From Octopus sinensis (Eukaryota), in assembly GCF_006345805.1 (NCBI RefSeq), contig NW_021825801.1, forward strand, positions 1 through 14,537: a DNA stretch of 14,537 nt, written 5' to 3'. The position numbers were made by a program, and so were the translations under genes. Position 1 is the first letter of the stretch, and each line of letters begins with the position of its first letter. Below the pieces are notes generated by a model, which worked only from the letters and a program-made list of their open reading frames with translations, searched no databases and had not been told where the DNA came from. Shown one piece after another: positions 1 to 10,040 of this stretch.

Positions 1-2161
1 AAGATGTGAACGAGGACAGGTGAGGTCCCTCCTGAACCTCATAAACACCCTGTACATGGAGCAAGTAATACTCCAACCAACCAGGGCAGGTAACACACTG
101 GATCTCTGCTTCACAAATAATATGGATCTCATCCATAATGTGAAAGTGACACCGACACTACTCTCGGATCACAACATGGTAGAGCTGACCATGTACGGGC
201 CAAAGAGAGCACGGACATGCAGCCTACAAGAAACCCTCAGAATCTTTCCAGCTTCAACTACCATAAGGCAAACTGGAAACAAATTGAGAAAGAGATCCTC
301 AAACAAAACTGGCCTAAATGTCTCTCCTCGCCAGACATCGACGTGAAACTTCAACAATTCATGTCTGTAATGCAAGCCATATGCTACAAATGTGTCCCAG
401 AGAGAAAGGCCACTGTACACAAGAACAAAATCCCCAGAGAGAGGAAAATTTTAATGAGACAGCGTACAAAAATTTCAAATCGCCTAAACAAACAGATTGA
501 AAGCAGTGAAAAGTCCCGCCTGAAAATAAAACTGTTGGAAATTGAAAATGTCTGCAACTCTCCCGTGAAAAGGAAAGAGCACACAAAGAAGCCTGGGCTA
601 TAAACAACATAAAATCTAACCCCAGAGCTTTCTACAGGTATGCCAAAGAAACAGCTACGGTGCACTGTAGGATAGGGCCACTCCTTGAAAAGGATGGCAC
701 ACTTACAGGAAAACCAATGAGGGTAAGTGAAATACTGAATGAGCAATTCAAAAGCGTTTTCACTCCACCCCTCGGGCATTTCCAAATCACCAATCCAACT
801 GACTTCTTTACCACTGCAGATATAAAATCAGAGACGGCGACGATAAATTACATCGATATAAAGGAAGACGATGTAATAAAGGCCATAGATGAAATGAAAA
901 CAGACTCAGCTATTGGCCCCGATGGATTCCCGGCAATCCTCCTAAAAGTATGTAAGAGAGTCCTAGCAAGACCACTGCAGATCCTCTTTCAGAGCTTCCT
1001 TGCAGCTGGCAAACTTCCAAAAAAACTGAAGGAAGGTAAAATATGCCCTATTCATAAAGGAGGTAGCAGAGCAGAGGCCAAGAACTACAGACCTATCTCT
1101 CTGACCTCACACATCAGCAAGGTCATGGAACGAATAGTCAGAAGGAAACTAATCACCTTCCTTGAAGAAAATGACTTGCTGCCTGACACCCAAACTGGTT
1201 TCCGACCAGGAAGAAGCTGCTTAACTCAGCTCCTACAACACTATGACTGGGTGCTGAAACAACTGCTCAACCACTCAAATGTGGAAGTCATATATCTCGA
1301 CTTTGCAAAGGCCTTTGATAAAGTCGATCATGGAATGATATGTCACAAACTGCGTGATCTTGGCATAGTTGGAAAATTGGGAGAATGGCTTCATGACTTT
1401 CTGAAGAATAGAAGTCAGGTGGTAGCAGCCAATGGGGCCACTTCCACTAACACGCAAATAGTGAGCAGATGGATTCTCAGAACCTTCAGAACAAGAGAAC
1501 AAGAAACCATGATGGTCCTCTGGAAGACACTTGTCCTAAGCCACTTTGACTATTGCTCTCATTTATGGTCACCATCCAGCGTCAAGTTGATCACAGAACT
1601 CGAGGCGATCCATCGTAGCTACACGAAGAAGACAGCCTCTATGCAGAATGTAAGCTACTGGGAAAGACTCAAGAGATTAAAACTATATTCCTTGGAGCGT
1701 AGGCGGGAAAAATATGCCATAATATACATCTGGAAGATCCTGGAGGGACGTGTCCCGAACTTTGGCATCGAGAGTTACACAAATGCCAGAACTGGGTGCC
1801 ACTGCGTGGTGCCTAGGACTCCAAATTTGCCATCAAGATGTAGGACAAGATACTGTGATAGCGTGGGCTTCCGAGGCCCACAGCTCTTCAATATCCTCCC
1901 GAAGAACCTAAGAAATCTGCATGGGGTGGATGCAGATGTCTTTAAAATGAAACTGGATCTCCTCCTATCAGGTGTCCCAGATGAACCAACTTCACAGCAG
2001 GAGGTGCAGATGAGGGCAGCTGCATCGAACTCTCTCATGCACCAAATGGCAGTCGCTAAAAAGCTTTCGTGAAGTAAAACTGTGTAGCAACACCAAATGG
2101 CGGTGCCTCAGCATGGCCACAGCTCAATGAGCTGAAACTAAAATCAATCAATCAATCAATC
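1..2161 (+). mobile_element. Non-LTR retrotransposon (LINE, CR1/L2-group), copy 1; 5' part lies outside the window; RT core missing
   Basis: APE endonuclease C-terminal motifs PTRAGNTLDLCFT and LSDHNMV. Linker IKSNPRAFYRYA. RT motifs GPDG, PIHKGG...NYRPISLTS, QTGFRPGRSC and YLDFAKAFDKVDH. C-terminal LERRRE.YAIIYIWKILEG. Stop at 2070-2072, short 3' UTR, (AATC)n tail at about 2142-2161. Confidence 0.95.
2..2072 (+). pseudogene. Disrupted LINE ORF2 (endonuclease-reverse transcriptase)
   Basis: Stitches across ORFs 20-346, 217-603 and 546/660-2072 by two -1 frameshifts (about 200-217, and the A-run at 545-548) with no internal stop. At 1466/1467 the protein jumps in frame from ...TQIVS to RWILRTF, so GVPQG and the catalytic YADD are absent. 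Confidence 0.9.
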
Positions 2162-2605: not shown

Positions 2606-3710
2606 TGATTTTGATTTTGATTTTTCCAGTTTCAGCTAATGAGCTGTGGCCATGCTGGGGCACCGCCATTTGGTTTGGTACACGATTTTACCTCACGGAT
2701 GCTTTTTAGCAAACGCCATCTGATGCATGAGAGAGTTCGATGCAGCTGCCCTCATCTGCACCTCCTGCCGTGAAGTTGGTTCATCCGGGACACCTGACAG
2801 GAAGAGATCCAGTCCTACTTTAAAGACATCTGCATCCACACCATGCAGGTCCCTCAGGTTCTTCGGGAGGATATTGAAGAGCTGTGGGCCTCTGAAGCCC
2901 AGGCTATCACAATATCTTGTCCTACATCTTGATGGCAAATTTGGAGTCCTTGGTACTACGCAGTGGCGTCCGGTTCTGGCATTTGTGTGACTCTCGATGC
3001 TAAAGTCTGGGACAAGTCATTCCAGGATCTTCCAGATATATATTATGGCATATCTTTCTCGCCTACGCCCCAGGGAATAGAGCTTTAATCTCTTGAGTCT
3101 TTCCCAGTAGCTCATATGTTGCACAGAGGCTATCTTCTTCGTGTAGCTTCGTTGGATCGCCTCAAGTTCTGTGATCGACTTGACACTGGATGGTGACCAT
3201 AGCTGAGAGCAATAGTCAAAGTGGCTTAGGACAAGTGTCTTCCAGAGGACCATCATGGTTTCTTGTTCTCTTGTCTAAAGGTTCTAAGAATCCATCCAGC
3301 CAGCCCCACCGTCTACATTTCATTGCCAGTTTAGCAACATGTACATGAAAGGTTGCGTCATCACTATGTGAATTCCAAGGTCCGCACTGATTGTGCCTCT
3401 GGGATTGCTATTACTCCGGGTCCAGTTCCAGTGTATTCATTGTGTATTGCATTTAGTTTTGCATGTGATAGTATAAAGCTTGAAACTTTTCAGTATTGAA
3501 CTGCATGCTATTCTTTTCAGCCCACTTGTATATTTTGTCCAGCTCACATTGCAGGCGTTAGTGTCCTCAGGTTCTGTATTGCCTGTGAAACTTTTGTATC
3601 ATCTGCATAACTTGTGATCGTGGCTCTCTGCGTGGCTGAGGGCATGTCTGAGAGGGCCATTATGAACAGTAGTGGTCCCAAAACAGTGCCCTGCGGAACA
3701 CCGCTCACTA
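2606..3710 (-). mobile_element. CR1/L2-group LINE, copy 2; 5'-truncated; same family as copy 1
   Basis: The minus strand reads VSGVPQGTVLGPLLF (GVPQG at 3688-3702), SYADDTK (YADD at 3598-3609), GWILR and MMVLWKTLVLSHFDYCS. Premature TGA at 3017-3019, several frameshifts, stop at 2693-2695, same 3' UTR as copy 1, (AAAATC)n tail at 2606-2625. Roughly 90% identical by eye to 1467-2140. Confidence 0.95.
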
Positions 3711-5978: not shown

Positions 5979-6650
5979 ACATATATTATATATATATAAT
6001 ATATATACATATATATATACATATATATATATATACAATATATTAATATACATATATATATATATACTATTATATATATATACATATATAGATATATACA
6101 TATATATATATACATTATATAATATAGACTATATTATAATATATATATATATAAATATATATATATAATATAGATATTACATATATATATATATAAATAT
6201 TATATATATAAATATATATAATATACATATATATATATAAATATATATATATATACATATAATATATATAATATATACTATATATATATATAATATATAT
6301 ATATATATATAATATAAAAATATATATAAATATATATATATTATATATATATTATATAAATATATAGATAATATATATATATATATAAATATATATATAT
6401 TATATATATAATATATATATAATATATATATATAGATATATATAATATAATATATATAATAATATATATAATATATAAATATAATATATGAATATATATA
6501 ATATATTATATATATATATAAATTATTTAATATATAATAAATATATATATAATATTATATAAATATATATATATATATTTATTATATATATATATAAATA
6601 TATAATATAGAATATATAAATATATATATATAATTATATATATAAATATT
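3823..6650. repeat. About 2.8 kb degenerate (TA)n/(TACA)n array
   Basis: Almost purely alternating TA with C interruptions on the + strand up to about 6280, then nearly pure A/T. Confidence 0.97.
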
Positions 6651-6953
6651 ATTGGTGAATTGAAGAATGAAGAAATGGAGCTGAACGCCGATTGAACAGA
6701 AAATCGTTTTATTTCATTCTACAACGTGTTTCGAAAGGCACAAATTACCAAAATCCGATGCGTTCAGCTCCATTCTCTTCAATTCACCAAAATGTTTTAA
6801 TTTCAATTATCCGCACCAACGCACGGTTTGGCAACGCCAGAGGGTTGTACCTCCAACCGTGCTGTTCACTGCTGTGATTTTTTGCTACTAAGGTTATCGG
6901 TTAAACTTTTGATTGATTAATCTACTACAAGATTATTCATCTTTCTATTTCAC
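6651..6953 (-). mobile_element. About 300 bp non-coding (TA)n-inserted element A (Penelope pLTR/retrozyme-like) with a half hammerhead and an internal inverted duplication
   Basis: Homologous at both ends to 7229-7520 (AATGAAGAAATGGAG.., CAACCGTG, TATCGGTTAA, GAT.ATTCAT). The minus strand has GAAAC-ACGTT-GTA (6732-6720) followed by AATAAA (6713-6708). Inverted repeat at 6652-6688 / 6760-6790. Confidence 0.65.
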
Positions 6954-6984
<31 letters not shown>

Positions 6985-6994
6985 AATATATATA

Positions 6995-7041
<47 letters not shown>

Positions 7042-7130
7042 GATATATATATATATATAAAATATATATATATATATATAATATAATATTATATACATAT
7101 ATATATATATAAATTATATATATATATTAC

Positions 7131-7191
<61 letters not shown>

Positions 7192-7198
7192 ATATATA

Positions 7199-7228
<30 letters not shown>
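6954..7228. repeat. (TA)n microsatellite
   Basis: Read directly. Confidence 0.97.
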
Positions 7229-7229
<1 letters not shown>

Positions 7230-7515
7230 AATGAAAGAATGGAGTCGAACGACGATTTTAACAAAATTCTTTTATTCTCGACATATGTTTCGAAGACTGC
7301 ATATTCTTAATTCGGAAGGAATAATGGGTGCCTTATGCCGCCTTCTCATCAGAAGACAAGGAACTTATGTCAGCATCATGACGAACAAAAACTATTAGAT
7401 GACTGCACAAACAAAACATACAAATTTTTCACCGAAAGCTTCAACCGTGTTTTCTGACATGAATTTGCTCCCGGATATCGGTTAACCGAATATCCATACT
7501 AGGATAATTCATTCA

Positions 7516-7520
<5 letters not shown>
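7229..7520 (-). mobile_element. About 290 bp non-coding (TA)n-inserted element B carrying a complete hammerhead motif (Penelope pLTR/retrozyme-like)
   Basis: Flanked by (TA)n on both sides, no ORF in the track, diverged homolog of element A, contains a hammerhead followed by AATAAA on the minus strand. Confidence 0.7.
7276..7356 (-). ncRNA. Type I hammerhead ribozyme motif
   Basis: Minus strand: stem I UCUU, core CUGAUGA (7352-7346), stem II GAAGGCGGCAUA, 30-nt loop, UAUGCAGUCUUC (11/12 pairs), GAAAC, AUAU, GUC, then GAGA. Stem III is the palindrome ACAUAUGU. Predicted cut between 7280 and 7279. AAUAAA at 7276-7271. Confidence 0.85.
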
Positions 7521-7805: not shown

Positions 7806-8067
7806 TTATATATATATATAATACGAGGGAATATTCAAAATTTAAGGGAAAAATTCAATTTAGAAATACTAAATCAAATTTCACAAAATATAATATATAT
7901 ATATAAATTAGAAAAAAAACCCACTTTTTATCAATTCGATAATGAAAAATTATATTATACCATTTAGAAAAATTACATCTTATAGAAAGATTAAATATAA
8001 GATAAAACATATAACAATGATTAAGTAATGTGCAAAATAGTAAATAAAGCGTACATATTTGGTAGAA

Positions 8068-8168
8068 TAACGACACATGTTTCGTGGCTATATTTAAGAA
8101 ATAATAATAATAATAATAATAATAATAGTAAAATCATTCCAATATAAATATAGCCACTCTTCAGGTTA
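8068..8168 (-). ncRNA. Type I hammerhead ribozyme motif with a microsatellite in loop II
   Basis: Minus strand: stem I UAAC, core CUGAAGA (8164-8158), stem II GUGGCUAUAUUUA, 48-nt loop containing about (UUA)9, UAAAUAUAGCCAC (13/13 Watson-Crick pairs), GAAAC, AUGU, GUC, then GUUA. Predicted cut between 8072 and 8071. Confidence 0.88.
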
Positions 8169-8299
8169 AAGATAAAAATAAAATAATTAATTAGATAAAT
8201 TAATAAATATACATGAAAAATCTTGTAAAATAGGAAATATCTTAACAAATATATTCTTGTTTAAATAAAAAAAAATAGAATAAAAAATAAGATACAATT

Positions 8300-8950
8300 A
8301 ACTAGAAGGGTCATATAGCTTAGAGGACAACTGGAAGTTTCTGCAGGATAATTTACTGGGTGCCATTGAGCAAATCTTTGTGGCTGATGTAAAGTCCCAA
8401 CTAGACTGAGGTGACATGGAGATGGAACAATGAGGGGGACAATGTTATAAAAGCAAAGATACAGGCCTGGAAAGACTGGAAAAACAGTGAAAGCAGAGCA
8501 TTATATCAGGGAGCCAGAAGGTGGGGGCTAGGCAACAGGTTTCCATAGCAAAAGGAATAGCAAAAGCTAAGAAGTTTACAGCCTGAGGATCAGAGATGTG
8601 AGGTGTTCAGGATTGCAAAGCAGTGTATCAGAGAGAATAGAGATGTGGTGGGTAAGAAATATGTTTGAATGGGTAATGGTATGATTGTGCTTAGTGACTC
8701 AAAGAAGAAAGATGCATGGAGATGCCATTATGAAAGGTTTTTAAATGTGGAGAATGATTGGGAAGAATCTTTCAGATGTCAAACCAATTGAGGGACCAGC
8801 CATCAGAGTTGATAGCAGAATAATAGATAAGGCAATTAAGGATATGAAAGCTGGGAAAGCACCTGAACCATCAGGTAACCTTGTATAGATGATTAAAATA
8901 TTCGACAGTGTGGGATACAGCATAGTCACTTGCATAGTTAATCAGGTTAG
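8300..8950 (+). mobile_element. Decayed RTE-clade LINE fragment (endonuclease-RT linker up to the start of RT)
   Basis: Piecewise translation gives VTWRWNNE (8411-8434, the RTE TWWWN motif), EVFRIAKQCIRENRDVVG, AWRCHYERFLNVEN (from 8714) and KAIKDMKAGKAPEPSG (from 8829). Multiple stops and frameshifts. Boundaries are approximate. Confidence 0.85.
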
Positions 8951-9671: not shown

Positions 9672-10040
9672 TACTCTTTTACTCTTTTACTTGTTTCAGT
9701 CATTTGACAGTGGCCATGCTGGAGCACCGCCTTTAGTCGAGCAATCGCCCCCAGGACTTATTCTTGTAAGCCCAGTACTTATTTATCGTCTCTTTTGCCG
9801 AACCGCTAAGTGACGGGGACTTAAACACACCAGCATCGGTTTGTCAAGCAATGCTAGGGGGACAAGCACAGACACACAAACATATACACACACACTTATA
9901 TATATATATACATATATACGACAGGCTTCTTTCAGTTTCCGTCTACCAAATCCACTCACAAGGCATTGGTTGGCCTGGGGCTATAGCAGAAGACACTTGC
10001 CCAAGATGCCACGCAGTGGGACTGAACCCGGAACCATATG

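What the first reader, a model, noticed from the sequence alone, without database searches (positions are those of the whole stretch)
7229..7520. Element B: 290-bp (TA)n-embedded element with a complete hammerhead and an adjacent poly(A) signal
Seen: UCUU-CUGAUGA-[12-bp stem, 30-nt loop]-GAAAC-AUAU-GUC-GAGA, with the palindromic stem III ACAUAUGU and AAUAAA starting 4 nt after the predicted cut. Established: palindromic stem III allows double-hammerhead (dimeric) cleavage in minimal type I ribozymes of satellite, PLE and retrozyme type. Inference: this is a complete monomer of a small non-coding retroelement, or a solo pLTR.
Basis: partly seen in the sequence, partly recalled or inferred. Interest (0 to 1): 0.72.

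Follow-up and report, generated by a model that had tools for sequence, protein, structure and literature searches.

The report
Two-armed Penelope insertion scar with hammerhead
This 290-base piece is not a self-contained mini-element but two short ends of a much longer Penelope-type jumping gene joined head to head in a TA repeat, one end carrying a hammerhead-ribozyme motif that is predicted to cut poorly on its own; such scars are common here, and their shared end points likely record where the copying enzyme starts and stops.

Summary
The hammerhead is real (minus strand, 7356-7276, predicted cut 7280/7279) and covaries across the family. The 'complete monomer' reading fails. [quoted passage not shown] In 138 position-ordered insertions, 80 are head-to-head two-arm scars; 78 of 80 have one arm ending at the pLTR end and one at the tail end. 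The 22 B-like ones have 22 different junctions, and B-like copies are scattered among long copies on a tree. Likely mechanism: both strands of a (TA)n target are primed at two internal RT start sites, and the short cDNAs are joined. Arm 5' ends pile up at one homologous site in two sister families (likely the RNA start), not at the ribozyme cut. AAUAAA overlaps stem I, is AGUAAA in many copies and is read through. The scan has noted such Hydra-type stubs before, in this and other genomes. Ordinary kind, new family; modest mechanistic value.

The parts
6954..7229 (.). (TA)n target, left side
   Evidence: 202 of 218 family 3' ends have (TA)4+ within 30 nt against 8.4% background
7231..7409 (-). 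Arm 1: 3' end (pLTR) of the Hydra-type PLE in sense, about positions -180 to 0 (0 = pLTR end)
   Evidence: same sequence follows the ORF and 3' UTR in L066, L291 and the 20 long loci
7276..7356 (-). Type I hammerhead motif: stem I 4 bp, core CUGAUGA, stem II 11 of 12 bp with 30-nt loop, GAAAC, 2-bp stem III inside the palindrome ACAUAUGU, predicted cut 7280/7279
7271..7276 (-). AAUAAA, overlapping the 3' arm of stem I, 39 nt before the pLTR end; poly(A) role not shown
   Evidence: AATAAA 122, AGTAAA 29, other 13 of 164 motif occurrences, overlapping loci counted twice
7410..7520 (+). Arm 2: the element's 'tail' (+13 to +152, start of the 5' UTR), inverted relative to arm 1, with a 27-nt deletion between two AGC repeats
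   Evidence: alignment; 0 of 2000 shuffles as good for 7410-7436; tail runs on into the ORF start in L066, L072-L099
7521..7632 (.). (TA)n target, right side

Best explanation
Element B is two short ends of a 3.5-kb protein-coding Penelope-like element with Hydra-clade motifs, the hammerhead-bearing pLTR end and the 5'-UTR tail, joined head to head in a TA repeat, and it likely arose as a one-off insertion in which both target strands were primed. Shown: composite anatomy; parent element with RT and C-terminal GIY-YIG; two fixed 3' end points (+4 to +9 and +143 to +153); one arm of each kind in nearly all two-arm insertions; variable inner junctions with microhomology or filler; (TA)n targets. 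Inferred: the endonuclease nicks both strands of (TA)n; reverse transcription starts inside the RNA at the tail end on one strand and at the pLTR end on the other (as shown in vitro for the anole element, PMC11167929); the two cDNAs stop early or run off the RNA 5' end near -200 and are joined by end joining. The hammerhead is inherited from the parent pLTR; with a 2-bp stem III it is predicted to need a second same-strand copy (tandem pLTRs) or protein help, it has no compatible partner here, and most cDNAs were copied through it uncut. This copy is likely inert.
For: Parent: L066 and L291 carry tail, 5' UTR, ORF (RWL, DKT, YRDD, GIY-YIG-like, CxxC, CxH), 3' UTR, pLTR; 71 protein relatives, best E 1.6e-86; motifs match the Hydra description and alignment by eye. 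Architecture: 80 of 138 insertions two-arm head to head, 78 of 80 with one tail end and one pLTR end; 51 of 53 in the sets not picked by a tail pattern; 37 of 38 in the sister family A. 22 B-like insertions, 22 different junction pairs; 13 distinct of 16 measurable among the closest BLAST hits. B-like copies need 21 label changes for 23 rows, shuffled mean 21.2, at least 7 forced by well-supported branches. Junctions: after dropping 2 artefact values of 80, 39 have filler, 14 are blunt or 1 nt, 25 have 2-8 nt microhomology (25 of 39 filler-free; null 17%). 5' ends: 130 arms start in -200..-25 against 15 in -376..-201, 8 exactly at -200 (199 arms); family A 49 against 9, 6 exactly at -228 (92 arms); the two sites are the same aligned nucleotide. 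136 of 158 (B) and 78 of 84 (A) arms read through the cut site. Hammerhead: 92.8% of cells paired, 7 pairs with changes on both sides, 0 of 500 shuffles, slid controls 29-47% (15 chosen copies); palindrome kept as ACAUAUGU 120, ACAUGUGU 35 (wobbles), other 9 of 164 and ACACGUGU in family A.
Against: No intact ORF in the 10 near-full copies or the 20 long loci. Pfam hits are below curated cut-offs (GIY-YIG E 0.029, RVT_1 E 0.0012). The CxCX5C linker of Hydra is absent. No tree with published Hydra proteins was built. Three close copies share one junction (-201/+63) and two more share another, so a little copying of composites or recurrent microhomology is possible. The tree has only 175 columns and 9 of 99 well-supported branches. 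My prior prediction that family A ends would pile up 30 nt after its TATA-like box (-339) failed (0 arms within 5 nt), so the 'RNA start' reading of the pile-up rests on an initiator-like CA only. A weak excess of starts just after the cut in family B (13 against 3, p 0.02 at 10 nt, 0.26 at 20 nt) was not repeated in family A (1 against 2). The priming steps are inferred, not observed.
Confidence: 0.85

Rival explanations
1. B is the monomer of a dedicated non-autonomous element (retrozyme or SINE-like) that is transcribed, cut by its hammerhead and moved as a unit.
For: Outer termini are consistent among 23 full-length BLAST hits; five copies fall in two shared-junction groups; the preprint 10.64898/2026.07.22.740005 (part 1 of 5 read) derives retrozymes from pLTRs.
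Against: Two halves in opposite orientation; 22 of 22 junctions differ; no tandem array of the B unit in 138 insertions (one locus, L196, shows a duplicated two-arm unit); no B clade; one hammerhead only; the 23 hits were selected by likeness to the query.
Confidence: 0.04
2. B is what remains of a longer inverted-repeat insertion after a later deletion of its middle (hairpin collapse, microhomology-mediated repair).
For: Microhomology at 25 of 39 filler-free junctions; the window copy has a 27-nt deletion between AGC repeats; long palindromes are unstable (general knowledge).
Against: Sharp pile-up of 5' ends at one homologous site in two families and a cliff upstream of it, also in single-arm copies that abut (TA)n directly; half of the junctions carry filler. 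It cannot be excluded for this single copy.
Confidence: 0.08
3. Inverted arms arise by self-priming or fold-back on one template (as proposed in PMC3846280 from palindromes at junctions), not by priming of both target strands.
For: Some junctions sit on palindromes or hairpins: -100/-100 twice, stem III palindrome in family A, -216/-216, -232/-232, -486/-486.
Against: B-like insertions whose arms share no sequence (22 of 80) cannot be plain fold-backs; the strict one-tail rule needs two different start sites.
Confidence: 0.15

Closest known systems
Hydra clade of C-terminal EN+ Penelope-like elements (Craig et al. 2021, PMC8557442; passages, section 11 and supplement passages read), including Hydra-1_Obim
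   Same: Single RT-EN ORF, RW[L/K], DKT, no CCHH, CxxC and CxH around the EN end, hammerhead at the 3' end, (TA)n targets, inverted 5'-truncated copies, one-sided tail.
   Different: About 3.5 kb instead of under 3 kb; CxCX5C linker replaced by Asn-rich sequence; tail about 145 nt instead of 30-40; hammerhead stem II 12 bp with 30-nt loop and palindromic stem III, unlike the motif listed for Hydra-1_Obim; protein clearly a different family by eye.
PLE hammerheads with small palindromic helix III (Cervera and De la Pena 2014, PMC4209133; parts 1-2 of 4 read)
   Same: Type I, short helix I, long helix II, palindromic helix III, mostly dispersed single motifs of truncated PLEs, opposite-strand pairs 100-700 bp apart.
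   Different: No unpaired base between A9 and G10.1; longer helix II and loop 2.
PAc (Poseidon, Anolis) in vitro mechanism (Frangieh et al. 2024, PMC11167929; parts 1-2 of 4 and passages read)
   Same: Two internal RT start sites defining the tail, both target strands cut and extended, AT-rich target, uncut RNA as main template.
   Different: Other clade; start sites inside the ORF there, in the 5' UTR here (tail ends 54 nt before the ATG); the pairing of one site per arm and the fixed 5' boundary are not in the passages read.
Metazoan non-LTR retrozymes (Cervera and De la Pena 2020, PMC7229834, passages; preprint 10.64898/2026.07.22.740005, part 1 of 5)
   Same: Size near 300 bp, low GC, type I hammerhead, pLTR relation.
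   Different: Those are head-to-tail repeats with a hammerhead in each unit; B is a single head-to-head composite with a variable junction.

Membership tests
Type I hammerhead (PLE type) | Core CUGANGA / GAAA / UH with helices I, II, III | tested here: met
Type I hammerhead (PLE type) | Helices kept by compensatory change | tested here: met
   6 of 12 stem II pairs and 1 palindrome pair change on both sides; stem I one-sided only; 15 chosen, related copies
Type I hammerhead (PLE type) | Match to an Rfam hammerhead model | tested here: not met
   none at E<=5
Type I hammerhead (PLE type) | Self-cleavage (monomer or dimer) | not testable with these tools
   fold only: stem III probability 0.01-0.02; palindrome duplex -7.0 kcal/mol; window copy -9.2 against -16.1 for its best fold, typical copy -19.4 against -22.7
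EN+ Penelope-like element | One ORF with RT and GIY-YIG | tested here: met
   parent copies L066, L054, L291; Pfam scores below cut-off; no intact copy seen
EN+ Penelope-like element | Partial tandem forming a pLTR, inverted 5'-truncated copy, one-sided tail | tested here: met
Hydra clade | RWK motif and DKT in place of DKG | tested here: met
   RWL and DKT
Hydra clade | C-terminal EN without CCHH, with CxxC and CxH | tested here: met
Hydra clade | CxCX5C linker before the EN | tested here: not met
   Asn-rich stretch instead; also absent in sister family A; present in relatives P0001, P0005. Filed therefore as Hydra-type that lost the linker
Hydra clade | (TA)n insertion and 3' hammerhead | tested here: met
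Hydra clade | Placement in the clade on an RT tree with the published proteins | not tested
   only by-eye comparison with the supplement alignment
Non-LTR retrozyme | Head-to-tail repeats with a hammerhead in each unit | tested here: not met
   no array of the B unit in 138 insertions
Non-LTR retrozyme | Fixed monomer sequence amplified as a unit | tested here: not met
Non-LTR retrozyme | Unit-length linear and circular RNA | not testable with these tools
   only assembled contigs available

The most novel reading that the evidence does not exclude
The short PLE scars are strong-stop-like products: a paired reverse transcriptase primes the two strands of a (TA)n site from two different internal start sites near the RNA's 5' end (one arm each, 115 of 118 two-arm insertions in two families), and copies to a conserved RNA start 200-228 nt upstream, through an uncut hammerhead. 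The genome would then map both RT start sites and the transcription start of a PLE without any RNA data.
Probability: 0.5. Interest if true: 0.55.

Novelty: new member of a known kind. Interest (0 to 1): 0.27.

Why it matters
The element itself is a dead scar of a known kind of retrotransposon. What has some value is the family statistics: how PLEs make inverted pLTRs and one-sided tails is still open (PMC8557442, PMC11167929), and the strict one-tail-per-insertion rule plus the fixed 5' boundary in two sister families give testable coordinates for the two RT start sites and the RNA start. The read-through of the hammerhead in most copies fits the in vitro report that cleavage is not needed for insertion. 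Five literature searches turned up no paper whose read passages quantify the one-tail rule or the 5' pile-up; most subscription papers and Repbase are not searchable here.

Tried and rejected
Rfam scan: only (TA)n-driven miRNA noise, no hammerhead family. Folding of the 290-nt unit as one RNA: z -1.37. Genomic footprint of ribozyme cleavage: 1 of 199 arms starts exactly at the cut in family B, 2 of 92 at or one base before it in family A; not above expectation. TATA-based start prediction for family A failed; the CRE and initiator counts are circular (part of the search pattern), only TATA 32 of 41 is not. Untemplated G before the pile-up site: 2 of 8 (B) and 3 of 6 (A), uninformative. Sequencing runs: no RNA holder listed on record; all were contigs, so no ends, strand or level; guessed-RNA contigs follow the DNA profile. 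No contig of four runs covered 7412-7433: a hole proves nothing. Search for a second assembly copy of the locus found only repeats, so I cannot tell whether the window copy's 6 substitutions and 2 indels in 181 nt are mutations or errors; element A in the same contig has 6 indels where 13 of 18 other copies have 0-1. Cis partner: the other same-strand hammerhead (8164) could pair its stem III but its stem I arms do not fit (by eye). Terminal-inverted-repeat (MITE) reading, considered, dropped once the tail proved to be the 5' UTR. 5'-UTR structure: z -4.31 for one copy but only 1 of 42 pairs covaries in 15 copies. Two rows were in the wrong orientation and realigned. Target-site duplications not assessable in (TA)n. 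Sequence look-up of earlier findings was blank. Supplements of the bioRxiv preprint were not seen and may list invertebrate retrozyme families.

Full report
Observation. Stem II has 11 of 12 pairs; the predicted cut is 7280/7279; AAUAAA is 7276-7271. A simple type I descriptor finds it once in the window and never in 200 shuffles; Rfam has no hammerhead hit. Across 15 chosen copies from several subfamilies and a sister family, 7 of 20 pairs change on both sides (0 of 500 shuffles; slid controls 29-47% paired against 92.8%), with the caveat that related sequences inflate such counts. The stem III palindrome is kept by wobble or compensatory change, as expected for a dimer-dependent ribozyme (PMC4209133).

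What it belongs to. A search of the own genome gave 2399 first-look candidates and, among 40 scored, 23 covering the whole query and 17 in which the two halves match separately, often in opposite orientation. Exact 23-24-mers from the ribozyme, the tail and the pLTR end occur 426, 331 and 497 times, reversed controls 0. Walking upstream from the ribozyme half leads through a 3' UTR into an ORF with RT and C-terminal GIY-YIG-like domains. The other half is the start of that element's 5' UTR: in near-full copies it follows an upstream pLTR piece and runs on to the ATG, 54 nt past the tail end; in many copies it also trails the 3' pLTR as an optional tail. The unit is about 3.5 kb. The protein shows RWL, DKT, YRDD, no CCHH, CxxC and CxH, the Hydra diagnostics of PMC8557442 section 11, and resembles the Hydra alignment by eye; the CxCX5C linker is missing. 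No intact ORF was seen in 10 near-full copies. The host is probably an octopus (inference from genome size, a named relative and earlier scan notes).

Anatomy of B. With 0 at the pLTR end, 7409-7231 is positions about -180 to 0 in sense, and 7410-7520 is tail +13 to +152 in the opposite direction with a 27-nt deletion between AGC repeats.

Is it a unit? From 170 loci taken in genomic order by three patterns, 138 insertions were called: 80 head-to-head two-arm and 58 single-arm. 78 of 80 have one arm ending at the pLTR end and one at the tail end; 51 of 53 in the sets not selected on the tail. Arms range from tens of bases to over 1 kb. 22 are B-like (tail-only arm), with 22 different junction pairs. 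Among the closest BLAST hits 13 of 16 measurable junctions differ (7 of 23 lacked an anchor). On a 107-row tree B-like copies are interleaved with long copies (21 changes for 23 rows, shuffled mean 21.2; weak resolution). Junctions carry filler (39), 0-1 nt (14) or 2-8 nt microhomology (25) after dropping 2 artefacts of 80. 202 of 218 3' ends abut (TA)n. The neighbour at 6650-6953 belongs to a sister family (proteins 55% identical, tails homologous) and repeats the rule in 37 of 38 two-arm insertions.

How it likely works. PMC11167929 showed for another PLE that both target strands are cut and extended and that RT starts at two internal sites that define the tail. The one-tail rule is what priming of each strand from a different site would leave; this step is inferred. 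Arm 5' ends fall off a cliff upstream of -200 (130 against 15 arms in equal windows; 8 exactly at -200) and of -228 in family A (49 against 9; 6 exact), and these are the same aligned base in a CA-start, initiator-like context. I read this as run-off at the RNA 5' end, in line with a pLTR promoter (PMC2377424, passages); against it, my TATA-based prediction for family A failed, and an RT-blocking structure is not excluded. 136 of 158 and 78 of 84 arms pass through the ribozyme site, and starts do not pile up at the cut, so the templates were mostly uncut. In the window copy the ribozyme fold is 6.9 kcal/mol above the best fold, against 3.3 in a typical copy, because of changes that other copies and the contigs of four runs do not share; some may be assembly errors.

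AAUAAA. It overlaps the 3' arm of stem I, is AGUAAA in 29 of 164 occurrences, lies 39 nt before the pLTR end, is read through in every tail-bearing copy, and is absent beside the cut in the third hammerhead family of this window. A poly(A) role is possible but unsupported.

Verdict. Real motif, wrong unit: a two-armed scar of a new Hydra-type PLE family. Earlier scan notes, seen only after this reading was reached, describe the same kind of stub in this and other genomes. Interest 0.27.

Noticed in passing
window 6650-6953: Element A: two-arm insertion of a younger sister Hydra-type family (2901 exact matches of a 27-mer): inverted 157-nt tail plus inverted pLTR end, joined to a sense end holding only the 3' half of the hammerhead. 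Full motif has stem III ACACGUGU; tandem full-length copies 3.65 kb apart (L349, L364).
   Followed up: yes
window about 7900-8300, minus strand, core at 8164-8158: A third hammerhead family: CUGAAGA, 13-bp stem II, long (AUU)n loop, GAAAC AUGU GUC, 4-bp stem I; 1219 candidates, ends in (TA)n, inverted pieces in some copies. Parent not traced.
   Followed up: partly
L007:1101-1460: Two head-to-tail units of about 200 nt, separated by (TA)n, each with yet another hammerhead (same ACAUAUGU palindrome), directly beside a B-like copy; a better retrozyme candidate than B, or a local duplication.
   Followed up: no
L072:1975-2190 minus (5' UTR of full-length copies): A 12-bp stem between the tail and the bases before the ATG encloses a hairpin and the tail end (z -4.31); conserved but with 1 of 42 pairs covarying. 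Could position the RT start.
   Followed up: partly
window 1-2160 (+) and 2607-3700 (-): Two 3' parts of an RT-like non-LTR retrotransposon facing each other across (TA)n, 600 nt at 90% complementarity; type not tested.
   Followed up: no
L027:960-1500: Five 97-nt repeats built from the -200 region with strand switches, inside one insertion: looks like repeated template jumping at the 5' boundary.
   Followed up: no
L066:2374-4308 minus: Asn-rich in-frame stretches after the thumb and before the EN, recalling those in Adineta Penelope elements (PMC3846280), here replacing the Cys linker.
   Followed up: no
window 9680-10040: SINE-like repeat seen also in flanks of many loci (identity recalled, not tested).
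   Followed up: no
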